64,000 bases of DNA from a virus. Of this stretch, positions 12,501-38,619 are shown in pieces. The translations under genes and the position numbers were made by a program. The stretch is from the IMG/VR virus record IMGVR_UViG_3300032282_002017, positions 2,531-66,530 of that record. The stretch is one strand, 5' to 3'. Every line of letters begins with the position of its first letter. The first letter of the stretch is position 1. The notes below the pieces were generated by a model. It was not told where the DNA came from and made no database searches. It was given only the letters and a program-made list of their open reading frames with translations.

Positions 12501-15500
12501 CTTTGAGCTTAAAGAAGCCATTGGTATTCGCACAGGAAAACATCTCATATGACAATTTTAAGGCGAAGATGATTGAATCTGGCGTGACTTTGCCAGCCAT
12601 TGTATCAAGCCGCCTTGATAGGCTTGTAAACGGTGGTCTTGGTAAGGTTCAGCCTGTGTGGTTCTGGCTACATCCAACCCATGTTGGCGCTGGCGCTGAA
12701 TACGGAAGCGCTTTGCGAGATGCTTTTGTGAAAGCTGGATACGATGGCATTATTCATCCTGATAGCTCGCTTATTGAAGGCGGTTTAGATGAGCCAGCAA
12801 CCTCCCATGTTGTCTTCAACCCCAACCAAATCAAATCCGCCGACCCCATCACCCGCGATGACAACGGCCAAGTAATCCCCCTCTCGCAACGCTTTAACGC
12901 GGCGAAGGCGGATATTCGGGAGTCTCGTATCTCCTACACAAACCCGCTCGATGCCCAACTAGCTTCCGCGTCTGAAAGGATGCGGCAGATGAGGGAGAAG
13001 GTGGTGACGCAAGAGGTTGAGCCTTCGCTGGGCGGTCTTTCTGAGGCGGAGGTTGTGATTCCAACAGCATTTAGAGGACAAACCACGCCTTTTGAAGGTA
13101 AGATTCCCAAAGGAGGTCTGCATTTTAGCAGCGATGAAGACTATGCTCGTAGTTACATGCTGGATGGGTTTAGCAACATTGCGGGTGAAGAGTCATCAAT
13201 TACATCTGGAAGTTTGTTGTTCCGCAATCCGCTCGATCTTCGGGGGGTTAAAACGAAAGTGCAGGCAGAGGCATCATTTGCAAAAGCTGGCATTCCCCTA
13301 TCAACCAAGGTGCGTCTATACCCATTCACCCAAAATGAGGAATACAAAGGAGAGAAAACTTTGCGCGAATGGTTCGCGTTTCTTGATTCCGCGATTGATG
13401 GCTTTGGCCCAGATTTCTCCCCAAATGAGGCTCTCACCGATCATCTTGGGGAAGCCATCAGGCCATTTGTTGACGGGATTATTTTTGACGAGCACGGCAA
13501 TCCTAAAACCACTAGCTATGTCATTTTTAACAGTTCTCAGTTCTCTACTAGAAACCCTGAATCCTCGCGTGCCGCAGGTAGCATGTCACCCGCACAAGTC
13601 CGCACCGAAATCCGCAAGGCTTATGATACCGCCATTCAAGGTAGCGGCAGCGTTCAAGCGTCGTTGCAGCAAGTTTACGACACGGCTAAAGAGGCGATTC
13701 CAACGCTGACAGAGAAGCAATTTGGCGAGCAAGTACAGGCGCTTTACGAAGACGGTAGCGCGTTCCTTGTGCCAACCGATAGAAGCTCGGATATGCTTGC
13801 GGCAGGCGAGAAATGGGGCGTTTATGATGTAGCGGGATTGCCTGCGAGTTATTTGGGCGTGATGCCATCTCAAGAAACGAATTATGAAAACGACATTCGA
13901 GCTAATACTACTAGCCTCAGACCAAGAGGCACAATGGAACCTCGCGGCGGAACGGAAAAGTATGGCGCTACTACTCCGCAATTATCGCCAAAGGACAAAT
14001 CGCCAAGAGCGAATACTCTCAGAGCAGTGGTGGATGAACGAGTATGGCGAAACCTCTCGCCAGACCAGAAAAAGAATGCTCTTGACGATTTCGGAGCAAA
14101 GCGGTTGGAAGGAATTGCGGCCAACTCAAAGCTTGTTTCTTCATCATACAGAATTGCCAAAGCGCCATCAGATCATGCTTTTGCAGCACTCCTTCCAGAG
14201 ACTAATGCCGAGAGGCTGGTGGTCGAAATAAACCCATCTATTGATCCAAAGCATCCTATTTTGCAAAAGTCGGCATTGGAGGCTCACGCCTTCATGTATG
14301 ATATGATGCAGGAGGAAATGATTCATTTTGCACAGCACTACAACGCTTGGCAGCAATGGGTTAAGAGTGGCGCTAAAGGCTCCGTGGTGGCATTTGAAAA
14401 CAAGCATTTCAATGACCAAATCAATGAGTTGATGGCCCAAAGGAATGCCGCGATTCAAAACGGTGATTCCAACGCTGCTCGCAAAATTGATACCGCGCTC
14501 ATTCACGCTTGGAACCTTTATGATCCTAGCCGCCAAGTTTCTACACTTGACCAGCTTGGCAACGCTCTTGGTGATGCCAAGGTAAGGATGCCTGAGTTCA
14601 TGATGGAAGTCACTCGCCAGCTTGTGCAAATCGGCAGGCAGGACTTCACGACAGAAACAGGATGGGCGAAGTTTAGAGATATGCTCGTCAAATGGGCAAA
14701 CGATGTGCTTAATTCTCTGCGCAATACGCTTGCTAGCGTGAGAAGCGGTGAATTTGGACAACTGCTTAAAGACGAAGTTGCCAACATTGAGCGAATTGTT
14801 AATCAGATTGAAACTGGCGATGGCGTTCTTCCATCTCAAGAAAGTCCAATTGTTAAAGCGACACCAATTGACCAAAATGCACTCAAATCCATTATCGACA
14901 AAGCGGCCAGCAAACCCATCAGTGATGATAGCATTAAGAGCTTCATTCGCGATACCGTTGCCTTGCACGGGGCATTATCCAAAGTGCGGATGGCAAGATT
15001 CGACCCAAATGCCCCTTTACAGGTCATGCCTCATGAGAATGGTGAACTCGTCATGGGACTCGGAGAGGGGCAGGCAAGACAAATTATACGCGATTCGGGT
15101 TCTTCGGAGGCTGGCTTCCGCTATATCGCGGATGCAATTGAAGAGGAAATAATTCATCTTGCGGATTATTTAGCGATAAGGTCAAAATGGGAGTCTCAAG
15201 GAAGCAAGGGGAACTTTATTGTCTTTGCTCAACGTGAAACACAAAGGCTCACCAAGGATTTGCAGGACGTTGCAAAAACACTTTCAGATTCCGACAAAGA
15301 AGCGTTGCGAAAAACTCTTGGGGCAACAGTGGCCTCGTATCACGACAAAAGCGAAATTGCTAACGCAAGCCTTGAGCAATTGATACAGCTTTCTGCCAAT
15401 ACTTCGGCCCCCATGTTTGCTCATTCAGAGTTAATTCGCTCGCTTATTCAAGCCAAACGCTCCGGCGAAATTACAGCCACGGGATATAAACGCATTGCAA

Positions 15501-18500
15501 ACACGCTCGTTAAATGGCTTCAGGATGCGCTTAATTGGCTAAAGCAAGCCTATGGTCAATCCCGCAGCGGTGGATTTGGTAATGTGCTAGCACAACGTAT
15601 TCAGGATACCGAACAGCAGCTTGAGATGCTTGGTGTGATGCCGACTGAGATTAAGGCGAGCAAAGCTCAAAAGGATGTTGATACAGCTATTCACTCCGCC
15701 CGTGGAATTACTGGCAAGGTTGATAAAATCGTCAATGGGCTTCCTGCCAACTCTTACACTGGAAAGCCTTTGCAAGATGCCATGTCGCAATCCTTTGCTC
15801 CACTTGGAAGTCAAAAGTTTTACGATGAAACCAAATCTCTCATCGTTGCTGCTATTGATGACATGGTTAAGCGCGGCATTGATTCCGGTGACATTCTAGC
15901 AACGGTTATCCAGCCCGATTTCACAGAGGAAGCAATGAAGGGGTGGAATGAGTCGGCTAAATCAGTCGCGAAAAGCATCTACTTCAATCACGGGCTTCTT
16001 CTAGCTATCCAAAAGCAGGAACAATTGATGAACGATGGCGATATTACAGCCGCCAATAATCAACAGGACAAGATTGATGCGTGGTCGAAGTTCTGGTTCA
16101 ATCTAACCAATAACTTTGGCGTCACGGGCAATGCTATTCAAAGAGCAATGGAAGACCCCGCGTATCAGGGGCTTTACTTACTAACCAACTTTGCCGCACA
16201 GACTCAAAAGGGCCAAAAGGAAGTCACAGATTCAAATGTGGCAAATCCAAACGAAGTTGCCAAAGACATCAACGATGCTGGCGCAAAGTCTAAAGATGAT
16301 GCCGATTCGGATGTTGCTGATGCCTTGACTGGCATTCAGTTTGAAGATGAAATTGCCGCTGGTGAAGCTGCATTGACGCCAGAAAACAGGACTCTTTGGG
16401 AGAGAGCTAAAGCGATTCTTCGCTCACTTGCTAGAATTGCCAAGGCGGAGACTTTCTTTGCCGCCAAAGGCATCAAGGCATCCAATGCGGCTGAATCCGC
16501 AGATGAAGAAGTTGCTCGCTATATTCAAATGGGGCCAAAGGGTGTCGGCGTGCTGAAAGCCAAGCTACAAAAAGAGTTCGGCAGCATTGTTGCTAAACTT
16601 ACCGGAACCGAAAAGACGGCAACTCCGCGCAAACCACGCACCCCAAAAGAAGAAGCGGTTCATCCGTTGATCGCTCGCATGATTGCGAGAACAGCGGCCA
16701 AGCTCAATGCTGGCACGAATCTGGATGCTGCTTTGGCTGATTTGATGCCCGAAGCGCCTTCATATCGCGACAGAATCGTTGATGACGTAGTTTCTGGTAT
16801 TGTTGGCCGCGCAAATCGCTCCATTAAGAAGCCTGTTGCACCAAAAACATTGGCGGACTTGACCAAACAGCTTAAAAGGATTCTCAGCGAGAATATCAAG
16901 GTTGAACCAAAAACCATTCCAGAAGAATCGCTTGGCAAGAAGGCGTTGCGAGCATTTGGATATGTTGCATCCAATGAGCAAATCGTTGAGGACGCTTGGA
17001 ATAAGGCCAGAAACAAGGTGCAAGAAACACTCCAAGAAGAAAATAAAGATGCCACGCCAGAAGAAATTGAGACTCTACTGAACTCATTGATGAGCGAGGT
17101 TCCGAAACAGCTTTACTCATCATCTCAGGCTAGGTCTATTATTCGGGAGTCTTTGGAAGGTGGTAAATTTGACAATTCCAAGGAGATTTTAGATGATGTG
17201 AATGGCGCTCGCGATGCTGTTCTCAAAAGCATTGAGGACGCGGTAAAACAAGAGAAGGCAGCTAATCCAGATCAATTCCAACACGATCCTAGCTATGAAA
17301 AGTCCTATATCCTCAATGAATTTAACGCTCTTGTTGCCGATTTGCAGAAGGCTAGAGACGCTGGAATTGCAGCATCTAACAAAGCCGTTCGTGATGCCGT
17401 ATTTGGTGCTGATGCACAAAAGGCGCTCAAGATCATCGTTCGCAAACTCACGGCGGTTCGTCCCGGTATTGATGCGCCACTTGCGCCAGCATTGGCATGG
17501 AAGCGCCTGTTTGAAATGACACAAACAGATCAGGGTCAAATCAAAGGCCGCATGTTTGACATCGTTAAAGACGAGCCTGCATTTGCCGACTTAGACAATG
17601 CTGATAAGCAAAAGCTGGCCGATATTCTTGAAAAGGCTTGGGATGCTCGCCGCGCACAAGTGTTGGAAAAAGAATTTGATCGCTTGAGAATCAAACATCG
17701 CAACCGCATGACCAAAAAGGCGGCAAAAGTGTTTGATAAGCGTCCAGCCATCCTACGAAAGATTGATTCAGGCGTATTTGATTATGACGACCTAGCAGTT
17801 CTGGTTGGAGAGGAATTTGGCATTAAACCTCTCACCGCCGCTGAAAATAAACGCGCCAAGGAAATCTCCGCACGCCTAAGTGAAGATATTTCACCACATG
17901 AGCGCACGAAGCTGCAAAACGAGCTTCAAGAGATGATGGTCAATAAAAACCTGTCTCTTGGCGAAATGCTCAAAGCATGGTGGATTAGCGCCGTGCTTAC
18001 AGGCCCAAGAACTGCGTTTACAATCGGGTGGAGCTTCCTGTCGGGCGGTTATGAACTTATGGGCCACGCGGCAACCGTTTTGCTTAATCCAAAGATGTCT
18101 ATGGCGGAAAAGGGTGCTGCCATTGGAGACTCTATCAAAAACTGGTGGAGCAGCATTGGCCCCGAACTGCGCAGCGCATACATGTACGTCTTGACTGGAG
18201 ACAAGACGCTTCAAGACCCTGCCGCACTTATGCAGTCAGCGTTCTTTGACAACCAATTCCGTAAAGAGATGGGGCGTTTCTCGTTCTCCGTTGCTGAGAA
18301 AATGATTGCCAGCAAGAATCAACTCGTTCGCTACGCAGGTTGGTTTATGACTTATGGAAGCCGTATTTTGAATGCGCTGGACGCTTTCAACTTTAACATC
18401 ACCAAAGCAGGCTCAGCGCCATTGGTGTATTCGATGCTGAACAATAGCTACCAAGCTGGCAGTTTCCAGACATCTAAGCTGTTCAAAGAGGCTCGCAAAA

Positions 18501-19942
18501 AGATCATTGCTAATGAATATGGCGGCACAGAACCAGCCGACACATCGCGCCTCAACTCTTGGGCTAGAAACGCTGCGTATCAGGAGCTTTCCAAGATTAC
18601 CGCGCTGGCTGAAAACATGAATCAAGTCGCACGGCAATCTAACTTTACCTTGGAGCCTACTGGATTGGGCGGATGGCTTTACAGCGGGCTTAAATTTGCC
18701 GACGCCTTTGTTCAAAAGAAATCGGAAGCGTTTGTTGTGCGGATGAAGCAAGACCTTTTGCAAAATGGCGGAAGTGCATTTAGCAAGATCATGGTTGGCG
18801 TAGCTGAACTTATCCAAGCAGGAGCAATGCAGACACTACCAATTTTGGGCCTCCAATTTGCCAAATTTGCGCTCAATAAGCTGAATCAGACCATTTCATT
18901 CATTCCCGTTGCCGGACTCATTAGAACCAAGGAATCAAGCGTTGAAGGCCAGCGTGTACACACGGCGATGATTTGGAGAAATCAGGCCGTTGGAACAATG
19001 CTATTCTCGTTCGTTTACTTTACTTTGAAGGCTATCGAAGATGAGCCAGATGATGAAAAGCGCGGATGGGGTATTGAAGGCGGATGGAGTAATCTTACCC
19101 CGCAAGAAAAACGTCAACGTGATGCAGCCGGATTGAAGGAGCACACGATTTGGTGGAGAGGCAAGGACGGCAAGCGAACCGTGGCAAATTTTATGAACTG
19201 GCCGATTAGCCCAATTCTAGCTGCCGCTGGAGCCATGTCGGATCAAATCAAATACAGCCCCGACCAATGGGCGCAGGGCGGCGTTTTAAAGCGTGGCGTC
19301 ACGATGGGTTGGGCTATGGGTAAATCCGTGTCTGAAACATCAGCGCTAAGTCAGTTCACAGAACTGTTTGGTAGTAGCATGGCCTCCCGTGATCCAGTTG
19401 AGGCATTTGCAAATAAAGCAGCGCGTGTATTTGGCGGCTACGCTGGCGGCTACATTCCTCGTATTTTCAAGGATATTGACCGCAATATGCAGCCAGAAAT
19501 TCGTAAATACGAAGGATGGGAATATCTAGGCAAGGAATTGCCCTATTACCGCAGATACATCGGCAAAGAATATCTCGACATTTTTGGCAACGTCATTGCG
19601 CCGTCTCAAACGCCTTGGTCGCGTGAATTTGTTCATCAGCCAGCAAGCCCTGAATATGAGATGTTAAGCCGTGTTAATTCGCATGGAGTTTGGTTATCGC
19701 CAGCCGTGGCGGAGAACCGTCTCGTTGGCAAAGGTTCACATAAGCGTGAGATGACAGACGACGAGGCCAATCGCTACGTCAAGATCGTTGGTAAGGGCTA
19801 TTCCGACCTGATTCTCAAATATGGCGAACGAATCATCTCTATGCCAAAAGACAAAGCCAAGAAATTCGTCGCTGAAAAGGCAGACGACATTAGAGATAAG
19901 GCCACCAAACGTGCTATAAAACAACCCTTGACTTCGGGCTAA
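6509..19942 (+). CDS. Giant (4477 aa) polyvalent internal virion protein with lyase-, ART-, PP2C- and zincin-like modules
   Basis: Uninterrupted 13.4-kb ORF. G/A-rich hydrophobic N-terminus; motifs GWKLHLS/FTIY, DG/GD/ASDGL/DD, HEGLVH, GYDGII..VVFNPNQIKS, EExxH x2; helical C-terminus. Confidence 0.85.
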   Translation: MPTYELRSQKTGRTYEVDFANPPSDTDIDESINQFDAANPVADEPLIDISDTLKAAGQAVSGITTTAPHAFRQLYSGLDNPWQRSEGYNASQAEMDRLNAETEAANQAAVESGDISTMSRGMRQAGQSIGFSAGAMGAGLLGSSTAGTAGRYVGGLFGPEGVPIGEAVGRGVGAVGAGYGAAYRMAGAQFLDDARKEIDDKFMVKLGRLPNAQEQEEAYNELKPLAEAFGHAEAGPEAIGNLAMAKAGKFIFGLGGKKAVTSLAANALKKVGVGAGGLATELGGETATQVEQNRIEEQKNALLSGQAPPEQGARTVDEYSKALGEVAPATLATMGLMGSVPAAYKAGTIIKGAFTPKPQEAPQVQEAVIAADDALAQAAADPLVPVSETSKAYAEFLATMERGEQSPAETPSDVESRLAAIQSAPSAFYQQLQRGITPQAAIAGQETPLDVEQRLSAIQNEPIATAPVGTPLSEVGTEEAAATIGDSSLDLGNDGGAVLEEAQPEAPRQAPSKTLASPTTVDETPRLKAAIAQKPDGKTSGSRVTDVDANNDFAKNGGWKLHLSVKPENYKAVDEWLHKNHKGQYKLLSGGSPEEGSDFTIYVGHKDAANSLASKMESEIGEFLNPFESGPAKDAKFNAKVGGRFDVSRTGKSKDIPWNFAGMSGVPFDETAMEAINYIGDAPKTREQFASKAAPEIERINKQLAAKYGDRYTGTVTPTTEESLSVETPKTKIEDFSNPDEFYRVVVGDEAFNDIVESGQVRTNAANKNKTGSSLADKLAARPTAFPSFSKGQAAVSYAQDNPNHYIVVTADESIKPSTSGRHSKGKTMFPTDASGKHLPSLDAKKVRVYKHLANGNYELVYDRGNVVSKKQAAKPLANPIVRAHAGDIEERTETENAPRITELVRKAAAINSGKEKGADLGFAPTKSEPTNQADSIDSFVKGMTPMVAKRARNALDESVSSGGMPFQRKELVQNKVAAGAKVEQKVTTDTARIKKLESLIRSMRNTVPFGNPNHPETIAFNAAKDELAAGPKITQRRLVNPDGSFLAESQISKTAMDYAEHLIASQKSQPTKPITPPVETPTNATEGKPMSGDSGSVAGLSVPLTAKVTKVGKSDFPAQHGAAYQVSFNNGSIGFIANKKQSIPTSDPSVFITRPDDYIEDSLGGNDNISVIVDGTSDEGTGMKVHDLPKIILDSWDYSKPPLDNVKSALALFYKKHKSAFQASQYPSAIGTIALSVNYPKGSGKFEGKTLVVTVGDTIALVDGKPIQTLGKVYISPNGDVLGIDPFKFKGVMQAPFTITDATNKSVVIASDGLSKAIQDNPNGTIEEWLNHPETQHKGILQDDVSVIDLRQAKISLAPQSTEKAEKPSATQEIVTRLNSASSRDEAREILSGVKDLLALKEVAKAMNYPTTGIKKDVVNRLVAAVGSRADGKAIRGDNPRILNTPTIVRTPEQQAAFDEERRLENERAKELDVNIPKKKPRTAEEFARDMEAIMAPSQGETPSAKVDLTQNPLVRGDEAPVTRQPFPASSQDTMLPTNPKVEAGVSALQNIISELPVGAQAKYTTEVLSKAAKFFESGNSADLDGLTSIQKTKINEARYRSNAAAEAQEKAERKLYEKKLREEEKENARLEKERAEQEKLTESRRESLDSIIGTPTGVEMNAVSPMDGQESLALVHNSGDVPGVLNAFVGTSKEFLANKQNEKDFPELYKIIKAGRVDEGNFAYGRAFVFTDGIGVNASDRANATKLGITPSVAAVRRVLIHEGLVHRGIYGLPARLQMQILQWVRQNATPQELDALAKDYPQYADWATNPQQMLGLAEEFLAKKVEKMTKFPTSGPLARLVEILKDIWRYITGKDGEPTVKNLRDVVKLLKAGAKAADARLVNGGGIKMSQLRAQGFVTPEMDAEYAKAIADGDVAKQQAMVDSAAKAAGYNVFNVGNGIVYEKGDEPTTVYGPRDNVMSHGGEMGFYFSDSPKVWADYSKPRRAGEKGKINRVSLSLKKPLVFAQENISYDNFKAKMIESGVTLPAIVSSRLDRLVNGGLGKVQPVWFWLHPTHVGAGAEYGSALRDAFVKAGYDGIIHPDSSLIEGGLDEPATSHVVFNPNQIKSADPITRDDNGQVIPLSQRFNAAKADIRESRISYTNPLDAQLASASERMRQMREKVVTQEVEPSLGGLSEAEVVIPTAFRGQTTPFEGKIPKGGLHFSSDEDYARSYMLDGFSNIAGEESSITSGSLLFRNPLDLRGVKTKVQAEASFAKAGIPLSTKVRLYPFTQNEEYKGEKTLREWFAFLDSAIDGFGPDFSPNEALTDHLGEAIRPFVDGIIFDEHGNPKTTSYVIFNSSQFSTRNPESSRAAGSMSPAQVRTEIRKAYDTAIQGSGSVQASLQQVYDTAKEAIPTLTEKQFGEQVQALYEDGSAFLVPTDRSSDMLAAGEKWGVYDVAGLPASYLGVMPSQETNYENDIRANTTSLRPRGTMEPRGGTEKYGATTPQLSPKDKSPRANTLRAVVDERVWRNLSPDQKKNALDDFGAKRLEGIAANSKLVSSSYRIAKAPSDHAFAALLPETNAERLVVEINPSIDPKHPILQKSALEAHAFMYDMMQEEMIHFAQHYNAWQQWVKSGAKGSVVAFENKHFNDQINELMAQRNAAIQNGDSNAARKIDTALIHAWNLYDPSRQVSTLDQLGNALGDAKVRMPEFMMEVTRQLVQIGRQDFTTETGWAKFRDMLVKWANDVLNSLRNTLASVRSGEFGQLLKDEVANIERIVNQIETGDGVLPSQESPIVKATPIDQNALKSIIDKAASKPISDDSIKSFIRDTVALHGALSKVRMARFDPNAPLQVMPHENGELVMGLGEGQARQIIRDSGSSEAGFRYIADAIEEEIIHLADYLAIRSKWESQGSKGNFIVFAQRETQRLTKDLQDVAKTLSDSDKEALRKTLGATVASYHDKSEIANASLEQLIQLSANTSAPMFAHSELIRSLIQAKRSGEITATGYKRIANTLVKWLQDALNWLKQAYGQSRSGGFGNVLAQRIQDTEQQLEMLGVMPTEIKASKAQKDVDTAIHSARGITGKVDKIVNGLPANSYTGKPLQDAMSQSFAPLGSQKFYDETKSLIVAAIDDMVKRGIDSGDILATVIQPDFTEEAMKGWNESAKSVAKSIYFNHGLLLAIQKQEQLMNDGDITAANNQQDKIDAWSKFWFNLTNNFGVTGNAIQRAMEDPAYQGLYLLTNFAAQTQKGQKEVTDSNVANPNEVAKDINDAGAKSKDDADSDVADALTGIQFEDEIAAGEAALTPENRTLWERAKAILRSLARIAKAETFFAAKGIKASNAAESADEEVARYIQMGPKGVGVLKAKLQKEFGSIVAKLTGTEKTATPRKPRTPKEEAVHPLIARMIARTAAKLNAGTNLDAALADLMPEAPSYRDRIVDDVVSGIVGRANRSIKKPVAPKTLADLTKQLKRILSENIKVEPKTIPEESLGKKALRAFGYVASNEQIVEDAWNKARNKVQETLQEENKDATPEEIETLLNSLMSEVPKQLYSSSQARSIIRESLEGGKFDNSKEILDDVNGARDAVLKSIEDAVKQEKAANPDQFQHDPSYEKSYILNEFNALVADLQKARDAGIAASNKAVRDAVFGADAQKALKIIVRKLTAVRPGIDAPLAPALAWKRLFEMTQTDQGQIKGRMFDIVKDEPAFADLDNADKQKLADILEKAWDARRAQVLEKEFDRLRIKHRNRMTKKAAKVFDKRPAILRKIDSGVFDYDDLAVLVGEEFGIKPLTAAENKRAKEISARLSEDISPHERTKLQNELQEMMVNKNLSLGEMLKAWWISAVLTGPRTAFTIGWSFLSGGYELMGHAATVLLNPKMSMAEKGAAIGDSIKNWWSSIGPELRSAYMYVLTGDKTLQDPAALMQSAFFDNQFRKEMGRFSFSVAEKMIASKNQLVRYAGWFMTYGSRILNALDAFNFNITKAGSAPLVYSMLNNSYQAGSFQTSKLFKEARKKIIANEYGGTEPADTSRLNSWARNAAYQELSKITALAENMNQVARQSNFTLEPTGLGGWLYSGLKFADAFVQKKSEAFVVRMKQDLLQNGGSAFSKIMVGVAELIQAGAMQTLPILGLQFAKFALNKLNQTISFIPVAGLIRTKESSVEGQRVHTAMIWRNQAVGTMLFSFVYFTLKAIEDEPDDEKRGWGIEGGWSNLTPQEKRQRDAAGLKEHTIWWRGKDGKRTVANFMNWPISPILAAAGAMSDQIKYSPDQWAQGGVLKRGVTMGWAMGKSVSETSALSQFTELFGSSMASRDPVEAFANKAARVFGGYAGGYIPRIFKDIDRNMQPEIRKYEGWEYLGKELPYYRRYIGKEYLDIFGNVIAPSQTPWSREFVHQPASPEYEMLSRVNSHGVWLSPAVAENRLVGKGSHKREMTDDEANRYVKIVGKGYSDLILKYGERIISMPKDKAKKFVAEKADDIRDKATKRAIKQPLTSG

Positions 19943-25197: not shown

Positions 25198-27066
25198 TCA
25201 AGCGATACCTTGATGCCAGCCTCCACCAATGCTAATATATGCGGGCCTCGTCTGCTGTTGCGGCTTGCGGTTGAAGTCATACGGCGGGAAAAGCAGGTTG
25301 TTTGGATGCGTTTTTGAGGCTGGACGTGGTGCGGCTGCTTCGTTTGAAGTCAATCCATGTCGCATCCTAGCTAGGTGAAGCGCCAAAAAAGTTGCATCTG
25401 CAAAATCGGGACTTTTCTTAGTCCTTAGCTTCATGTCATACTTAGGCTCAATGGCAATCTTGCCGCTTGCCTCGGTGTATGACCTTGCCACCATTTCACT
25501 CATTACATCGGCAACAAGCCCCTTTAGCTGCCCTGTGCGGATTAGCTCTTTGCCAACCATCCATAGCTCGGTTGCCATATTCTTGAACCGCTCAAAGCCT
25601 CTACGGGTGTCGTTTTTGCTGACTGGTTTATCGGATGCTTTCTCGCTGAATTTGACGTTAAGAGCGCCAAGTCCAATATCGCGGGCAAGTAGCGCCATGA
25701 ACGGATCGCCACCGCCTGTTCCGTCAACAGCCAAATTGCGCACATCAACGCCATGCTCTTTGAGTTTTTCTTTGGTTAGCTTCACTACCCATTCGCTTTT
25801 ATCAATGGAGGTATCGGTAACATCTTCATCTAGCGAGTAGATTTTGATAAGCTCAAACACTTTTTGAACTTTGCCAATTAGCGGGTCTTCAGCCAATCCG
25901 ATTTTTCCAATAGCTAGCGCGGCACGATCCCCGCCGTGTTTGTAAGCAGGGTCAAGGCCAGCGACCATTGTTGGCACATCAATCCAGCGTTTAACCTTTG
26001 CGCCAGCCTGCCATTTGATAATGTCGGCAGATGAGTAAATCGCATCCTTCTCGCCCGAAGTAATCCAGAACGCTTTGATTTGCTGATAATAGCCAGCGGT
26101 CTTTGTGCCGTTACGTTGAGCTTCTTTGAAGTCCTCAACTTTGAGCAAGCCCTTCCAGCGATTCCAGCCCTCAAGCACGTTAGGGGACTTCTCACCATCG
26201 AAGCGAATACAGAAGCCTTTGTAGCCGTATTCCTCAAGCTCCGTCTCCCATTCTGGCGTATCTTCAGTGACAGTGTGCCATCCATTTTTAGGACGGCTAA
26301 TTGCTCCATCAGGGCCAAAGATTGACGTAGGGTTGAAGCCAGCCACAAACCAGAACTCGTCGTTTCGTTTGAGGTTGCTTAGCGCCGTGCGAATCAAGCT
26401 ATGATGCAGTTCGGCAAACTCATCACCCATCAGAATCAACTTGGGAGATTTGATACCCTGAATCTTAGCGGCAGATGCTTTGGCTTGCGACTGTTCACCA
26501 ACCACAAGCTCAATGCCGCGAGTTTCGTCTTTATGATCCCCTACCTCGTAGCGAATCTTGTTTTTGGAATCAATCAGCTTTCCCGGCATGTTGTCTTTGC
26601 CAAAGAAAGACTCCATGTGTGACCAGCAGTTTTTGACATGGCCCCATACACGGCCCGAAGCGGCAGATGCGGTAATGGAAGTGACGAGAACCTTGGTGTT
26701 CTTTGGGTCAATCCAAAACATCATAACGGCGATAAGTGCCATTGCGTGCGTCTTCCCGCTGCTGGCGCAACCGGCAATCGCAAGTATGCGATGACGCCTG
26801 AAATTGCGCAAAATCCTTAGCGCATTTGGGTTCCACTCGAAGGGCCAGATGCCTTTAGGGTCTTTGAATATGATGTCCGTTAAGCGGCAGAAATGTTCTT
26901 CCCAAGGTAGCAACTTGATGCCTTTTATGTCTTTCCATTTATCGTAATTACGCAAAACTCGTAATTCAATCATCCAGTCAGTATAAGTAATTAACTTGCC
27001 CCTTGGCCCTTTTAACGGCGTGTGGACAATGCCATACTTTTTGATACTCTTTGCTCTGACTGCCAT
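25198..27066 (-). CDS. terL: Terminase large subunit
   Basis: Walker A GCASSGKT, Walker B LILMGDE, NP coupling motif, nuclease GLDPA..GGD and KSPDFADA. Confidence 0.88.
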   Translation of the reverse strand: MAVRAKSIKKYGIVHTPLKGPRGKLITYTDWMIELRVLRNYDKWKDIKGIKLLPWEEHFCRLTDIIFKDPKGIWPFEWNPNALRILRNFRRHRILAIAGCASSGKTHAMALIAVMMFWIDPKNTKVLVTSITASAASGRVWGHVKNCWSHMESFFGKDNMPGKLIDSKNKIRYEVGDHKDETRGIELVVGEQSQAKASAAKIQGIKSPKLILMGDEFAELHHSLIRTALSNLKRNDEFWFVAGFNPTSIFGPDGAISRPKNGWHTVTEDTPEWETELEEYGYKGFCIRFDGEKSPNVLEGWNRWKGLLKVEDFKEAQRNGTKTAGYYQQIKAFWITSGEKDAIYSSADIIKWQAGAKVKRWIDVPTMVAGLDPAYKHGGDRAALAIGKIGLAEDPLIGKVQKVFELIKIYSLDEDVTDTSIDKSEWVVKLTKEKLKEHGVDVRNLAVDGTGGGDPFMALLARDIGLGALNVKFSEKASDKPVSKNDTRRGFERFKNMATELWMVGKELIRTGQLKGLVADVMSEMVARSYTEASGKIAIEPKYDMKLRTKKSPDFADATFLALHLARMRHGLTSNEAAAPRPASKTHPNNLLFPPYDFNRKPQQQTRPAYISIGGGWHQGIA

Positions 27067-27107: not shown

Positions 27108-28478
27108 TTATGCTTCCTGTATCGGTTCAAATCTAAAGAACCTGCCGTGTAGCGTAGCCTTGACGATCTTCAAGCGCTCGCCATTTCGATTCTTCTTGAT
27201 GAAAAGGTTGCGGTCAAAATTCGGTTCGTCGTCCTCTTTCTTCTTTTGCCACGCCTTGCCAGTGGGCTTGTCGGCAGTCTTTTGAATGATAATCAGGTTG
27301 TCGCTATCTTGCTCTATGGCGCGGCTTTCACGAACCTTGCCATCCTCGTTAAGCTGGCTAGGCATGATAATATGAGCGCCTGTCATCTTTGCGCATTGCT
27401 TGGCGGTCGCGGTGATGTGAGCAACCTCACGCTCTCGATTCCCATTGCTGGTTTTGGACGTAAGGCAAAGCTGGATGTAGTCAATAGAGGCCACCAATTT
27501 CTGCCCCTGTTTGAGTTTCTTTGATCGCCTAGCGATGTCGCGGCAAATCTGCTCAATCGTCTTGCCTGCTACGTCCACGATGGAAATGGGCCACTTGGAA
27601 AGCCTGCCAAGTTTAGCCCCAACACTTTGCTGTTCCGCCCGCGTGAGAATACCGTGCTTCAGATTGCCTGAATCTACGCCAGATTGTGAGCAAAGCAGTC
27701 GTCCAGCTTCTTCCAAAGATGTCATCTCGTACGAGTAGATAACCCCAACATGATCCTGCAAACACGCAGATTCCACGAATTGACGCGCAAGGCAGCTTTT
27801 GCCATCACTGGATTCACCAGCAATCACGGTTAAGCGCCCCTCTTCCATGCCGCCAAGGTATTTATCAAAGCCAGCAAAACCTGTTGATATGCCGGGAATC
27901 TTGCCGGGATTAGCGCACCGTTCCTCAATTCCATTCACAACATCGGTCAAAAGCTCTCCAATCGGACGAAACGGCAAATCAGCGCTAGAATCATCATTTA
28001 CAGCCTCACAGACGAGCTTCGTCACATGCTGGAGTGCATCAGTAGCGGAAGCGCCATCGGCCTCTTGAAACGCCTGCAAATGGGCTATACCAGACGCTAG
28101 CGCGCCTATCATCTGACGAAACGTGAACTTATCTCGAATAATCGTTAAGTAATACGAATAATGCGAGGTTGTCGGAACCAATGTGTAAAGCTCACTGATA
28201 AACGCAGCGCCACCGACAATATCTAGCTTATTCGCATTTCTGAGAGCGTGAGTCAGTGATATTTGGTCAACAGGCTTACCAGCGGCGAATAGGCCGATAA
28301 TCGTTGTCAGGACTACGCGATTCGCTTCGTGATAGCAAATCTCAGGATGCGGAGCTTCATCGCACAACGAAGGACGCTGAAGTAGGCATGAAATCATCGC
28401 CTGCTCTGACAGATCATCATACGGAAGCGGCTTGTTTAGCGAGGCAAGAAGTTCCTCGGTTGTGGAAGGTTGGGTCAT
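27108..28478 (-). CDS. dnaB: Replicative DNA helicase, DnaB family
   Basis: N-terminal DnaB domain (LP....EQAMI), GISTGF..FD, GESSDGKS, YEM, IDYIQL, SQLN, RESRAIEQDSD, KNRNG. Confidence 0.95.
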   Translation of the reverse strand: MTQPSTTEELLASLNKPLPYDDLSEQAMISCLLQRPSLCDEAPHPEICYHEANRVVLTTIIGLFAAGKPVDQISLTHALRNANKLDIVGGAAFISELYTLVPTTSHYSYYLTIIRDKFTFRQMIGALASGIAHLQAFQEADGASATDALQHVTKLVCEAVNDDSSADLPFRPIGELLTDVVNGIEERCANPGKIPGISTGFAGFDKYLGGMEEGRLTVIAGESSDGKSCLARQFVESACLQDHVGVIYSYEMTSLEEAGRLLCSQSGVDSGNLKHGILTRAEQQSVGAKLGRLSKWPISIVDVAGKTIEQICRDIARRSKKLKQGQKLVASIDYIQLCLTSKTSNGNREREVAHITATAKQCAKMTGAHIIMPSQLNEDGKVRESRAIEQDSDNLIIIQKTADKPTGKAWQKKKEDDEPNFDRNLFIKKNRNGERLKIVKATLHGRFFRFEPIQEA

Positions 28479-36365: not shown

Positions 36366-37079
36366 TTATTCGTTTCCCAACATTAGTTCAGCTTTGGGTG
36401 GTTGTAAAGAGGTTTGGTTTGCTGCCGCCTCAATTCTTTGCTGGCAGATGGCGAAATACTTCTCGTCTCGCTCAATGCCGATGAATTTGCGATTGGTATT
36501 CATGCAAGCCACGCCGGTTGTGCCGCTGCCCATACAGCAATCGAGGATGGTATCTCCTATTTTCGAGCTTGCCAGTATAAGCCTCTCCATAAGCTTTACC
36601 GGCTTTTCTGTCGGGTGGATTTTTGACCTGCCGGATGGGTTGCTCCACAAAGCTTTTTTACACCTCTCATTGAAAATTGCCTTGGGCTTTCTGGCGAATA
36701 CGCAAAACTCCATGCCTGACAGCCATAGCTTGGTGCCGTTCATTGGTGATGGATTCGTTTTGTCCCACGCGCCCACTCTGGTTGACATCTTTAGATTTTT
36801 AAACTCAGTCACAAGTTGGCTTATCTGTTGTGTTCCGCAGAAGACATAAAAACTACCGTGGCAAATTCTATGAAATTCGCCAACAAGTAGCCGCAGGTCT
36901 ATATCGCACCTATCCGCCTTCCCTCTATCCAACAATCGAAGTCCAGAGCTTTTCTGCGAAACCTCATCGTATGGTATGTCTGTTAGCACCATATCCACGC
37001 TGCCAGTTTCGATTTCCTGCATGTGTTCAAGGCATTCGCCAAGCATGAGGGTGTATTTGTCGGTTTTGATGTTGTTCAT
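36366..37079 (-). CDS. DNA methyltransferase, N6/N4 beta class
   Basis: [50 protein letters not shown]. Confidence 0.92.
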
Positions 37080-37122
37080 ATTCGTTTTCCTTTTATCGCT
37101 GGTTGGGTGGTTGGGGCTTGGG

Positions 37123-37551
37123 TTAGTCTGTTTCAGTATTCATTTCCGGTGGTGATGGGCATTTCCATGCTGCCCTTGATCTTGCCAAAAATACCTTAAC
37201 CTGTTGTGGCAGTTTGTTATGATGACTATTTACCTTTTCACGCGATTTAGAATTGCCGCGCTTTGTGTTATGGCTTTTGCAATAAAGAAGAAAATGAAGG
37301 ATGCAGTGTCGAATTTGCGAAACAGTAAACTTTGGCATTCGCTTCCACATTTCGTGTACTTGACCGTGACAGTTGTCGCACAAAACCATCAAGTCAGACA
37401 TCTTTTCACGGCCAATGCGCTTATAAGTGAGGTGATGAATTTGCAGGCGGCTGGCATTTAAGCAACCTTCGCATTTGTGAGAGGATTGCCTTAACTTGAT
37501 TTGACGAATGGCTTTCCATTCAGGAGAGAGTAGGTATGCGGTGTAGTTCAT
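37123..37551 (-). CDS. HNH endonuclease
   Basis: [35 protein letters not shown]. Confidence 0.88.
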
Positions 37552-37985
37552 GTTTTAATAGGGGTTAAATTCAGGATTAATTGCCAGCGGAGAGAGAGAG
37601 GAAATCAACCCCTAACCCCTTTCCCCGTGAGAGGAAAAAGGTCAGGGTGAATGACTTTGCCGTGCTTTCGCTTCGCTTCGTCATCAGGACATCGTTTGTT
37701 CTAGGGAGCCATTTGCCATTGCTGGAAGTTATAACCTAGACGTGTCCGCACCCCCGGTGATTGCTCACCAAGCTATTTCTGAGTGTGTGTCTAAAATCTT
37801 GTCTGTTTGCACCCTTAACCCCCGAATCAAACCGAAGTGTGGATACTTGCTCAGACCCGACAAACTCGATCTTCTGAACAAACCGCAAAACAAAAAGCCG
37901 ACTCACGTGAGGCGAGAGTCGGCTTAGTGCGGTTTGCAGTAGCGCGGATCACTCCGCCTCACAGAGCAAACCAATTGAATTGAGG
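37552..37985 (-). ncRNA. Candidate large structured RNA / leader upstream of the HNH gene
   Basis: No credible ORF; multiple complementary stems; promoter immediately upstream. Confidence 0.5.
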
Positions 37986-37990
37986 CTGTA

Positions 37991-38019
37991 ATCCTACATC
38001 TCGAAAAAGGCTCTGTCAA
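37991..38019 (-). promoter_or_regulatory. Sigma70 promoter
   Basis: TTGACA-17-TAGGAT. Confidence 0.75.
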
Positions 38020-38358
38020 AAAGAATTTAATCCAGTTCTCCAAATTCCTCAAATAACTGGAGCATCGCGGCTCGATTTTGGCTCTCCGAATACAATCTCA
38101 CCACAAAAGATTGCAGAATGAGTAAGTTTGTGCGGAGTCGAGACTGCTGCTCTTTCACTTTCGTCTTTGGCTCTAACTAACCCAAAAGTGGGCGGCTCTC
38201 CCATCGGTATCACAACCCATATGGGCGCTGACACTGTTCAGTTGAACGCCCTTGTTTCACCGCATCGTGAACGCGGCCCAAATCGTGAACGCTAGGCGTT
38301 TCAGCTATCGAGACACTGGCGATGGGTTAGGATGCGCCAGAACGCGAGGAAAGGGCAC

Positions 38359-38394
38359 AAAAAAGGCCCGCCAGCGGTTAAGCTAGCGGGCCTT
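38359..38394 (-). terminator. Rho-independent terminator ending the early block
   Basis: AAGGCCCGCTAGC-loop-GCTGGCGGGCC followed by TTTTTT on the minus strand. Confidence 0.8.
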
Positions 38395-38397
38395 GTG

Positions 38398-38619
38398 TTA
38401 TCGGTTTGAGCTTGTGAGAACCATGCGCGAGACTTTATGATCGTATCGGCATCCTGTCGCCCTTGCGTTGCTAATAGCGTATTCTTGAGCTTCCGAATTG
38501 GTGGCAAAATCAGCCACAAAATGCTCGCCTTTCCAAGTTTCGACTCGGTAAAATACGCAATTTCTGTCTTTCGGTATGGTTCCTAGATGTGTTAATGGTA
38601 GCGGTTTGGGTGCTTGCAT
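38398..38619 (-). CDS. Small early-region protein
   Basis: ACGAAAGGAAACCA leader; ends just before the terminator. Confidence 0.55.
   Translation of the reverse strand: MQAPKPLPLTHLGTIPKDRNCVFYRVETWKGEHFVADFATNSEAQEYAISNARATGCRYDHKVSRMVLTSSNR

What the first reader, a model, noticed from the sequence alone, without database searches (positions are those of the whole stretch)
37123..38019. Promoter, ~430-nt structured RNA, then a small HNH nuclease
Seen: TTGACA-17-TAGGAT drives a non-coding stretch with nested stems on the minus strand (TCTGAG/CTCAGA; GGTGA/TCACC; GGACA..TCTAGG/CCTAGA..TGTCC; TGATGAC/GTCATTCA; a long CCCTGACCTTTTTCCTC/GGGGAAAGGGGTTAGGG hairpin). It ends at a 142-aa HNH gene with a basic C-terminal tail. 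Such a long gap is exceptional in this densely packed genome. Established: HEARO/omega RNAs are structured RNAs partnered with nucleases, but this protein has no RuvC motifs. Inference: a possible new RNA-HNH ribonucleoprotein or mobile unit; alternatively a complex leader for the whole leftward operon.
Basis: partly seen in the sequence, partly recalled or inferred. Interest (0 to 1): 0.72.

Follow-up and report, generated by a model that had tools for sequence, protein, structure and literature searches.

The report
Conserved structured phage leader RNA beside HNH
An uncultivated phage carries a previously undescribed, strongly conserved folded RNA of about 400 bases at the head of a long operon, and the small HNH nuclease gene behind it looks like a passenger rather than the RNA's partner.

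Summary
The window is 64 kb of a 66.5-kb virus record. Its largest ORF-free gap holds a sigma-70-like promoter (38019-37991, minus strand). About 410 nt of non-coding sequence follow: a GNRA-capped hairpin, an intrinsic terminator about 95 nt in, two more hairpins, and a 199-nt multi-helix core (37775-37577). The core ends about 25 nt before the 142-aa HNH gene.

A related metagenomic phage (L003 = L004) keeps 188 of 199 core columns. Its HNH gene is only 76.5% identical, 56.6% at third codon positions. Of 105 predicted pairs, 7 changed on both sides, 8 on one side and none broke. Loops vary only within GNRA. One-base indels rule out coding. Contigs from four further public runs carry the core. 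Rfam has no match.

The RNA-HNH partnership is not supported. A near-identical HNH also sits behind an unalignable "type B" sequence. Contigs from two to three of the runs continue from the core into a different start. No other HNH locus has the core. The protein is a plain HNH domain plus an unmatched helical tail.

Best reading (confidence 0.5): a new cis-acting leader and attenuator RNA of the delayed-early operon, with a homing-type HNH gene in the variable first-gene slot. Its function is inferred, not shown.

The parts
38363..38394 (-). Intrinsic terminator that closes the upstream (early) gene 38619-38398: 13-bp stem, then TTTTGTG.
   Evidence: 13 pairs, 9 G-C; inverted repeat I3
37991..38019 (-). 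Sigma-70-like promoter TTGACA-17-TAGGAT. The start of transcription is inferred at about 37987-37984.
   Evidence: In the 27.9-kb contig of run X4 no change is listed in the -35 hexamer, the -10 reads TATGAT, and the spacer is changed but keeps its length (one base lost, one gained). L004 has no consensus promoter at the homologous place.
37931..37972 (-). Hairpin 1: outer stem GGTTTGC/GCAAACC, inner 5-bp stem GCGGA/TCCGC capped by the GNRA loop GTGA.
   Evidence: L004 has ACGGA-GCAA-TCCGT, so a G-C pair became A-U and the loop is still GNRA. Its outer stem is longer by one base on each side (read).
37886..37925 (-). Intrinsic terminator or attenuator about 95 nt after the promoter: stem AAGCCGACTC/GAGTCGGCTT followed by TTTGTTTTG.
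   Evidence: z -5.1; I2. Two pairs changed on both sides and two on one side in L004 (helix 4). The scan also calls it a terminator in L004. The stem is kept with a different loop in run X13 (loose end).
37810..37882 (-). Two hairpins of the linker: 37882-37846 and 37845-37810.
   Evidence: helices 5-8: 2 pairs changed on both sides and 3 on one side. One more pair, 37840/37818, goes from A-U to G-C in runs X4 and X13.
37776..37809 (-). Variable, apparently unpaired linker with indels between relatives.
   Evidence: indels at 37786-37797
37577..37775 (-). The 199-nt core domain. It consists of S1 GGTGA-GNRA-TCACC (37772-37753), a long helix S2 with an apical CCA-GNRA-TGG (37747-37687), S4 with two purine-rich internal loops and a GAAA loop (37685-37650), the 17-bp hairpin S5 (37647-37610), and a CU-rich tail ending ...CCGCTGGCAATTA (37609-37577).
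   Evidence: 188 of 199 columns are identical to L004. Helices 9-16 have no broken pair and 2 pairs changed on both sides. The loops read GCAA, GCGA or GAAA. The laid pieces that reach this end of the core stop at 37563-37582 in each of the four runs. Fold z is -2.5 on this strand and -0.9 on the other.
37123..37551 (-). The 142-aa HNH nuclease gene: HNH domain at residues 2-68, conserved helical basic part at 70-130. No Shine-Dalgarno sequence precedes it.
   Evidence: AlphaFold2 model with mean pLDDT 91.9.

Best explanation
The gap holds a conserved, structured, non-coding leader RNA at the head of the phage's roughly 16-kb leftward operon. That operon carries the HNH gene, methyltransferases, RecT-like and nuclease genes, a DnaB-like helicase and a large-terminase-like gene.

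Shown: the folded elements, their conservation, their strand, and that they are not coding.

Inferred mechanism: transcription starts at the sigma-70-like promoter, or reads in from upstream genes in relatives that lack it. It meets a GNRA-capped hairpin and then an intrinsic terminator about 95 nt in. Most transcripts should therefore stop there as a short RNA, unless an early phage function or the RNA itself lets the polymerase read on. This is the logic of the lambda N/nut and Q/tR' circuits. Read-through makes the 199-nt multi-helix core. The core ends at the ribosome-loading region of whatever gene comes first. It is proposed to act in cis on processivity, 5'-end stability or translation start of the operon.

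The HNH gene is not a partner of the RNA. It is a small free-standing HNH endonuclease of the homing type. It occupies the variable first-gene slot directly behind an unusually invariant sequence, which is the kind of site such genes use as a landing place.
For: STRUCTURE. RNAalifold on the window against L004 predicts 105 pairs. Seven changed on both sides, 8 on one side and none is broken. Sliding the partners by 1-3 columns gives 0-1 double changes, and 6 of 500 shuffles reach the observed values. I mapped the 22 listed variants that fall within 37552-37990 (of the 40 rows shown; 61 more were not shown) onto that structure. 10 fall in unpaired columns and 11 keep a standard pair. One (37695) appears unpaired only in a 203-nt contig of run X17 that ends before its partner column. 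One further pair, 37840/37818, changed on both sides.

LOOPS. Three hairpin loops vary only within GNRA.

SELECTION. The core is identical at 188 of 199 columns. The adjacent HNH coding sequence is 76.5% identical, 56.6% at third positions. The early genes of the same two phages are 30-64% identical as proteins.

NOT CODING. One-base indels occur inside the core in L004 and in runs X13 and X17. All three frames carry stops.

STRAND. About 18% of the predicted pairs are G-U on the minus sense, by my count. Fold z-scores favour that sense (against 58, 59 against 60).

ATTENUATOR. The terminator scan calls it in the window and in L004. The translated upstream of P0162 shows the same 5' module in a third lineage.

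SPREAD. Twenty of 22 listed runs, from 17 studies, hold part of the RNA. Contigs from all 4 laid runs cover the core at 80% likeness or more.

HNH AS PASSENGER. Cluster-mates of L004's HNH, at least 90% identical, follow a different 'type B' sequence of about 350 nt. In the X4 contig an ATG of a different gene starts directly after 37577. In X13 a different ATG lies 12 letters on, and in X10 an ATG is followed two codons later by a stop (table 7). The covariance model finds no core in the other 81 sources, 79 of them HNH-homologue loci. Immediate neighbours on both sides differ between the window and L004.
Against: - No transcript data. The one 'RNA' run that was laid is flagged as probably DNA, so neither the RNA nor termination is shown.
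- Only two full sequences (the window, and L003 = L004) plus variant tables support the structure. The structure was derived from the same alignment on which the pairs were counted.
- The promoter is not conserved in L004.
- A simple leader does not obviously need a 199-nt near-invariant domain. High identity could partly reflect recent exchange of a mosaic module rather than selection: contig X4 joins a window-like 5' module to an L004-like core.
- No antiterminator protein was identified.
- HNH genes only 47% identical (P0003) to 81% identical (L004) to the window's both sit behind members of this leader family. The adjacency is therefore older and more regular than a chance insertion.
- For the laid runs, only 30 letters past the core are known. 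One of them (X17, translating MQGTWYLE) could be the start of a distant HNH.
Confidence: 0.5

Rival explanations
1. Stand-alone, trans-acting non-coding RNA gene or genes. One would be a roughly 95-nt small RNA from the promoter to the first terminator. The other would be a stable RNA of about 300-385 nt ending at the 17-bp hairpin S5. Such an RNA would act on a host machine such as RNA polymerase or the ribosome, or on a defence system.
For: The core is a self-contained fold. Its conservation stays within one stretch, and the laid pieces stop at its 3' end (37563-37582) whatever follows. S5 with its T-rich tail is called terminator-like in both phages. Several GNRA loops and purine-rich internal loops are typical of RNAs with tertiary structure (read). 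Near-invariance of the single-stranded parts suggests contacts with another molecule. The loop GTTATAAC is an 8-nt palindrome that could mediate dimerisation (read).
Against: There is no expression or 3'-end data. The tail after S5 is a weak U-tract. In every case seen the element lies within about 25 nt of the next start codon and in the same direction, which is the position of a leader. No promoter was found between the first terminator and the core.
Confidence: 0.2
2. An RNA-HNH ribonucleoprotein: the small HNH protein binds the upstream RNA and uses it as a guide or scaffold. This would be a phage relative of the HNH-only IshB/omega-RNA systems.
For: The RNA lies directly upstream of the nuclease gene and in the same direction, as in IscB loci (recalled). 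The best NCBIfam hit of the protein is the HNH part of 'guided_IscB' (E 5.7e-6). HNH proteins from 47% to 100% identical all sit behind leaders of this family. The protein has a conserved basic helical C-terminal half with no structural match. IshB shows that HNH-only members exist (PMC11610941).
Against: The IscB hit scores 25.7 bits against a cut-off of 175 and covers only residues 13-68. No RuvC or PLMP part is present. No Rfam family, HEARO included, matches. The same HNH, at least 90% identical, goes with two cassettes that cannot be aligned. Contigs from two to three of the laid runs continue from the core into other starts. The other 81 sources, 79 of them HNH-homologue loci, have no core. 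The variable 5' part is fully paired and ends in a terminator, so it is unlike a guide. No repeat array was found, and no transposase family among the neighbours scanned.
Confidence: 0.07
3. A DNA-level element that works as folded single-stranded DNA or as a protein-binding region. Examples are a replication origin or priming signal activated by the nearby promoter, or a recombination linker between phage modules.
For: The core contains GCGAAGC and GCGAAAGC. I recall these as exceptionally stable DNA mini-hairpins found in some phage origins. High identity next to unrelated flanks is the pattern of mosaic joints, and contig X4 is itself a mosaic inside the element. A promoter followed by a terminator would suit transcriptional activation rather than expression.
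Against: About 18% of the predicted pairs are G-U on one strand only, and changes run G-U to G-C. Loops are kept as GNRA. Fold z-scores are strand-asymmetric. There are no iterons or AT-rich tracts. The replication genes lie 9-10 kb away.
Confidence: 0.1

Closest known systems
Lambda-type promoter-proximal antitermination leaders: pR'-6S RNA-tR' with Q, and nut boxB hairpins with N (recalled textbook knowledge, not tested here)
   Same: A strong promoter is followed within about 100 nt by an intrinsic terminator at the head of a long delayed operon. A short 5-bp hairpin with a GNRA-type loop lies between the promoter and the terminator.
   Different: No N- or Q-like protein was identified. About 300 nt of further conserved structure lie after the terminator, which lambda leaders lack. 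There is no sequence similarity, and the host is unknown.
IscB / IshB OMEGA systems with omega RNA (HEARO RNA)
   Same: A structured RNA of a few hundred nt lies directly upstream of an HNH-bearing nuclease gene on the same strand. IshB is HNH-only and small, about 180 aa (PMC11610941, passages).
   Different: No Rfam match. Only the generic HNH domain is shared, at 25.7 bits against a cut-off of 175. No transposon context was seen. The RNA and the protein are not obligate companions.
Free-standing homing endonucleases of T-even phages, such as Seg and Mob proteins, and 'intronless homing' (recalled)
   Same: A small nuclease gene is present in some and seemingly absent from other related genomes at one fixed intergenic site next to a highly conserved sequence. 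The nuclease evolves much faster than the neighbouring sequence.
   Different: Cleavage and target are unknown. Absence in relatives rests on 30-letter contig ends. The neighbouring conserved sequence is an RNA leader, not a protein gene.
Large ornate bacterial and phage RNAs without known function: GOLLD, ROOL, raiA, OLE
   Same: A multi-helix RNA with several GNRA loops, found in phage sequence from aquatic and digester metagenomes, with function unknown.
   Different: It is smaller (199-nt core, about 410 nt in all). It matches none of these Rfam families. It is placed as a 5' leader.
GIR1 lariat-capping ribozyme upstream of a homing-endonuclease ORF in twin-ribozyme introns (recalled)
   Same: A folded RNA domain of about 190 nt ends just before the start of a homing-type endonuclease ORF.
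   Different: GIR1 is eukaryotic, sits inside a group I intron and derives from one. No Rfam hit here, no intron context, and no evidence of self-cleavage.

Membership tests
HNH endonuclease (Pfam PF01844) | Profile match above the curated cut-off; beta-beta-alpha metal finger with Cys and His ligands | tested here: met
   22.0 bits against a cut-off of 21.4, residues 27-66. Eight HNH-annotated PHROG families match. C27, C30, H39, H40, C58, C61, H62 and H66 are invariant in 14 relatives. The model has two strands and a helix at 36-68.
IscB / IshB OMEGA nuclease | Protein matches the IscB family model over more than the HNH domain (PLMP and bridge/RuvC parts for IscB; PLMP plus HNH for IshB, recalled) | tested here: not met
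   NF040563 guided_IscB scores 25.7 bits against a cut-off of 175. Only residues 13-68 align, to model positions 182-238. IscB and Cas9 chains appear only at E 0.3-1 in the fold search.
IscB / IshB OMEGA nuclease | Cognate omega RNA (HEARO-type fold) next to the gene | tested here: not met
   No Rfam family reaches its gathering score in 64 kb. No HEARO hit at E<=10 in 37000-38500.
IscB / IshB OMEGA nuclease | RNA and protein travel together; IS200/IS605 context | tested here: not met
   The same HNH cluster occurs behind type-A and type-B upstream sequences. The core continues into other starts in two to three laid runs. The core is absent from the other 81 sources, 79 of them HNH-homologue loci. 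No transposase family was found among the neighbours scanned. Transposon ends were not searched for.
Intrinsic terminator / transcription attenuator | G+C-rich hairpin followed by a U-run, downstream of a promoter and upstream of the genes | tested here: met
   Seen at 37925-37886 in the window and 4633-4673 in L004. The stem is kept through two double changes. Actual termination cannot be tested with these tools.
Lambda N/Q-type antitermination system | A phage antiterminator protein acting at the leader | not testable with these tools
   No early ORF has a Pfam or PHROG match. This part is inference only.
Free-standing homing endonuclease | Presence/absence polymorphism at one site among related genomes | tested here: inconclusive
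   The gene is present in the window and L004. The X4 and X13 contigs, and possibly X10, continue from the core into other starts. Only 30 letters are known for each, and a distant HNH cannot be excluded for X17.
Free-standing homing endonuclease | Cleaves the endonuclease-free allele near its own insertion site | not testable with these tools
   Needs a cleavage assay.
Group I intron carrying an endonuclease gene | Intron core fold; interrupts a host gene whose exons join in frame | tested here: not met
   No Intron_gpI hit at E<=10. The upstream gene ends with its own stop and terminator, and the downstream genes have their own starts.
CRISPR / TIGR-type guide arrays | Tandem or interspaced repeats | tested here: not met
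   Only an 8-nt, 3-copy repeat at 37100-37123. No repeat families appear in the RNA.
Any described RNA family (Rfam 15, 4227 models) | Covariance-model match | tested here: not met
   0 matches at the gathering scores in the window. At E<=10 there are 8 matches, all far below their gathering scores and to unrelated families.

The most novel reading that the evidence does not exclude
The 199-nt core, and an unalignable 'type B' counterpart that takes its place in sister phages, would be idiomorphs of a new class of ornate phage RNA. That RNA would work together with the small HNH protein: its conserved basic helical tail binds the RNA, giving a minimal HNH-only RNA-dependent nuclease in a lytic phage. 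This would be an IshB-like system outside transposons, used for homing or for attacking competitors.
Probability: 0.07. Interest if true: 0.85.

Novelty: new variant of a known kind. Interest (0 to 1): 0.55.

Why it matters
Phage leaders that control delayed gene expression are known from a few model phages. Almost nothing is known for uncultivated aquatic and digester phages.

This RNA is long and many-helixed, and it matches no Rfam family. It is held almost invariant while the neighbouring genes diverge to near-saturation at third codon positions. Parts of it occur in public runs from 17 studies. That level of constraint implies contact with a conserved machine such as RNA polymerase, the ribosome or a nuclease.

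It gives a concrete and testable object: a 95-nt attenuator plus a 199-nt domain. The locus also offers a natural experiment, because the first-gene slot is variable and the domain comes in two exchangeable versions.

It also corrects a tempting over-reading. Adjacency of a structured RNA and an HNH gene is not evidence of an RNA-guided nuclease.

Tried and rejected
SEARCHES FOR RELATIVES THAT FOUND NOTHING USEFUL
- blastn of 37100-38450 against GenBank phages: no match.
- TerL protein against the same collection: no match.
- Viral-contig scans with the HNH, the upstream 73-aa ORF, a 31-nt terminator string, a core 20-mer, an early-protein alignment and a gapped core pattern: none gave a relative of the RNA.
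- The HNH alignment in viral contigs gave one distant locus, L083, without the core.
- TerL gave two contigs of the same phage, L001 and L002, that stop short of the region.
- The core 20-mer in genome contigs gave one match inside a coding region of an alphaproteobacterial MAG. I take it as chance.
- There is no second copy in the phage genome.
- Searching the protein collection with a spurious 52-aa ORF across the core gave nothing.

EXPRESSION
The only laid run labelled RNA (X17) is marked 'probably DNA', so it says nothing about transcription. The lack of cover over 37100-37539 in X4, X10 and X13 is not used as evidence. The likeness threshold was 80%, and L004's own HNH is only 76.5% identical.

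READINGS REJECTED
- Group I intron, CRISPR or TIGR arrays, tRNA or tmRNA.
- A small protein in the core: frameshifting indels and stops in all frames.
- The weak SdsR_RyeB hit at 38359-38461 (21 bits against 38) is just the upstream terminator.
- The long-range pairing of the 5' TTGCT with the 3' GGCAA, predicted, is doubtful. A local stem with a paired one-base insertion in L004 competes with it (read).
- The PDB sequence and fold searches gave no significant match to the whole HNH protein.

CALLS THAT FAILED
- One search used a structure string I had mistyped by one column. Its numbers are void and are replaced.
- One search failed on a syntax error.
Full report
WHAT THE WINDOW IS

The window is bases 2531-66530 of a single 66,530-base virus record. 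It has few matches to known phage families. Those found are:
- a large-terminase-like gene at 25198-27066 (-) and a DnaB-like helicase at 27108-28478 (-);
- a DNA methyltransferase at 36366-37079 (-);
- a 4477-aa ORF with an ART-PolyVal domain.

Genes from about 41959 down to 21523 all lie on the minus strand. No tRNA was found. Only 17 of 69 mechanically chosen ORFs have even a loose Shine-Dalgarno motif.

THE OBSERVATION

The promoter-like site TTGACA-17-TAGGAT lies at 38019-37991 (-). The HNH gene lies at 37551-37123 (-) and scores 22.0 bits on PF01844 against a cut-off of 21.4. Both are as described.

The stretch between the upstream 73-aa ORF (38619-38398) and the HNH gene is 846 nt. Counting only ORFs of 80 aa or more, 37552-38613 is the longest ORF-free stretch of the genome.

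The upstream ORF ends in a strong terminator at 38394-38363.

The 106-nt unit from the promoter to that terminator folds with z = -5.1. The whole 439 nt gives z = -3.9 on the minus sense and -2.5 on the plus sense.

COMPARATIVE EVIDENCE

An alignment of the HNH protein with two homologues (A1) was scanned against metagenome contigs, which gave 80 loci. Two of them, L003 and L004, encode an HNH 81% identical to the window's. These two loci are 100% identical to each other where they overlap, so they count as one sequence. Their contig is a related phage: several early genes match the window's at 30-64% protein identity and in the same order. The genes immediately upstream and downstream of the RNA-HNH unit are unrelated.

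The non-coding stretch aligns from just before the first hairpin to the HNH start. Conservation is uneven.
- The first roughly 100 nt, holding hairpin 1 and the terminator, differ at many positions.
- The last 199 nt, the core at 37775-37577, are identical at 188 of 199 columns.
- The first 129 codons of the adjacent HNH gene are 76.5% identical, with 86%, 87% and 57% at codon positions 1, 2 and 3.

So the non-coding core is held far more tightly than the protein gene beside it.

STRUCTURE

RNAalifold predicts 105 pairs in 16 helices. Counted on the alignment, 7 pairs changed on both sides, 8 on one side and none is broken. When the 3' partners are slid by 1-3 columns, 0-1 double changes remain and only 35-49% of cells pair. 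Six of 500 shuffles reach the observed values.

There are two caveats. Only two sequences are compared, and the structure was derived from the same alignment.

Individual changes are instructive.
- The inner stem of hairpin 1 goes from GCGGA-GTGA-TCCGC to ACGGA-GCAA-TCCGT.
- The terminator stem has two double changes.
- CTTCGG/TCGGGG becomes CTCTGG/TCAGGG.
- CCA-GCAA-TGG becomes CCC-GCAA-GGG.
- The pair 37740/37695 goes from U-A to G-C.

FURTHER PUBLIC RUNS

Public runs add independent variants. Twenty of 22 listed runs, from 17 studies, hold part of the 439-nt stretch. One run holds all of it and may be the source sample.

I laid four runs: X4 (anaerobic digester), X10 (freshwater), X13 (marine plankton) and X17 (wastewater). 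In all four, contigs cover the core at 80% likeness or more.

I mapped onto the structure the 22 listed variants that fall within 37552-37990. These come from the 40 rows shown; 61 more were not shown.
- 10 variants fall in unpaired columns.
- 11 keep a standard pair. One of these pairs, 37840/37818, goes from A-U to G-C in both X4 and X13.
- One (37695) appears unpaired only in a 203-nt X17 contig, because that contig ends before the partner column.

Two loops change within the GNRA pattern. The S1 loop reads GCAA in the window, GCGA in L004 and GAAA in X4 and X13. The S3 loop reads GCAA or GAAA.

One-base indels inside the core occur in L004, X13 and X17. All three frames carry stops. The core therefore does not encode a protein.

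About 18% of the predicted pairs are G-U on the minus sense, by my count. The core folds with z = -2.5 on that sense and -0.9 on the other. This points to an RNA read in the direction of the genes.

In X4 no change is listed in the -35 hexamer and the -10 reads TATGAT. The spacer differs at several bases but keeps its length, which favours a real promoter in that lineage. L004 has no consensus promoter at the homologous site.

KNOWN RNA FAMILIES

No Rfam family reaches its gathering score in the window. At E<=10 only chance-level hits appear in 37000-38500. There are no repeat arrays and no second copy in the genome.

THE HNH PROTEIN

The HNH domain (residues 2-68) belongs to a very large family: 24,719 representatives at E<=0.001. 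About a dozen representatives share the C-terminal half as well.

An AlphaFold2 model from 14 sequences is confident, with mean pLDDT 91.9. It has no PDB match at E<=0.001. The HNH part resembles many HNH domains, such as phage GVE2 HNH, Cas5-HNH and Cap5, at E of 0.05 or more. The best NCBIfam hit is the HNH part of IscB, at 25.7 bits against a cut-off of 175.

IS THE RNA TIED TO THE HNH?

Three results say it is not.

First, a covariance model of the core (R1) finds it only in the window, L003 and L004 among 84 sources and 440,770 bases. The 79 other HNH-homologue loci lack it.

Second, the 90%-identity cluster that contains L004's HNH also contains 230-aa and 299-aa 'proteins' whose extra N-terminal part is a translation of upstream DNA.
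- Back-translated, the 299-aa form (P0162) matches L004's 5' module through the terminator at nearly every determinable base.
- After the terminator it cannot be aligned with the type-A core over about 350 nt.
- I call this sequence 'type B'. It too is tightly held: among the 8 members that carry it, 1 of 95 translated positions varies, against 12 of 135 in the HNH part (my count).
- The upstream translations of two further cluster-mates, P0164 and P0166, are +1-frame versions of each other over 9 residues (hand check with the genetic code). The type-B tail is therefore non-coding.

Third, the laid pieces that reach the 3' end of the core stop at 37563-37582 in each of the four runs, and the contigs run on into unlike letters.
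- In X4 an ATG of a different gene follows 37577 directly.
- In X13 a different ATG lies 12 letters on.
- In X10 an ATG is followed two codons later by a stop (table 7).
- Only 30 letters are known in each case.
- One X17 contig continues as MQGTWYLE, which could be a distant HNH start.
- Lack of cover over the HNH gene itself is not evidence, because L004's own HNH falls below the likeness threshold used.

Against a purely accidental adjacency: HNH genes from 47% to 100% identical sit behind leaders of this family.

INTERPRETATION

Shown: a conserved, strand-specific, non-coding, multi-helix element with an attenuator-like terminator, placed at the head of a long operon and ending at the first start codon.

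Inferred: it is a cis-acting leader. The arrangement of promoter, GNRA hairpin, terminator and genes is the logic of lambda-type antitermination (recalled). The S5 hairpin with its T-rich tail is a second terminator-like site, so expression of the operon would need read-through.

What the near-invariant 199-nt core does is not known. Candidates are polymerase modification, 5'-end protection or ribosome loading in a host that does not use Shine-Dalgarno sequences.

The HNH gene best fits a free-standing homing-type endonuclease parked next to an invariant sequence.

Rivals are a trans-acting stable RNA, a DNA-level element and the ribonucleoprotein reading.

LIMITS

- There are only two complete sequences.
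- There are no transcript data.
- No DNA is available for type B.
- The host is unknown.
- No supplementary files were needed or seen.
- The one paper used, PMC11610941, was read as passages only. The other papers were seen as listings and are not used.

Noticed in passing
window 38020-38360 (-): The 340 nt between the early terminator and the promoter are also partly conserved. The 27.9-kb contig of run X4 matches up to 38132, and X10 pieces match 38205-38247 and 38319-38365. A 43-aa ORF at 38158-38027 ends just before the -35 hexamer. Five of the 10 listed X4 changes in it fall on third codon positions, by my count. It could be a small gene or more leader.
   Followed up: partly
window 36366-37551 (-): In this phage the HNH gene is followed directly by an N6/N4 DNA methyltransferase. 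That pairing resembles a small restriction-modification pair. In L004 the next gene is instead an unrelated 274-aa ORF with no family match, so the pairing is not conserved.
   Followed up: partly
window 6509-19942 (+): A single 4477-aa ORF whose only Pfam hit is an ADP-ribosyltransferase domain of polyvalent proteins (ART-PolyVal, residues 1963-2112).
   Followed up: no
genome bases 1-723 of G000, outside the window, about 1.8 kb upstream of it: A second, unrelated 241-aa ORF at the genome's start. Reading its DNA by eye, it looks like another HNH-type homing endonuclease. It was not scanned against any library.
   Followed up: no
L001 and L002, corresponding to about window 34356: Two viral contigs from different samples carry a 100% identical terminase gene. 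Both end exactly 7290 bases upstream of it, near the start of the RecT-like gene. A shared assembly break suggests a variable region or a strain junction there.
   Followed up: no
whole genome: Only 17 of 69 ORFs have a loose Shine-Dalgarno motif, and the sequences before start codons are A-rich. This hints at a host that initiates translation without Shine-Dalgarno pairing.
   Followed up: partly
window 37739-37732 (-), inside the core: The apical loop of helix S2 holds the 8-nt palindrome GTTATAAC, which is invariant in L004. Such loops can mediate RNA-RNA dimerisation. Not tested.
   Followed up: no
proteins P0002, P0152-P0166 (no DNA held): Gene callers translated the leader of sister phages as N-terminal extensions of the HNH protein, giving 230-aa and 299-aa forms. 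In P0162 the open frame runs 164 codons upstream of the HNH start without a stop.
   Followed up: partly
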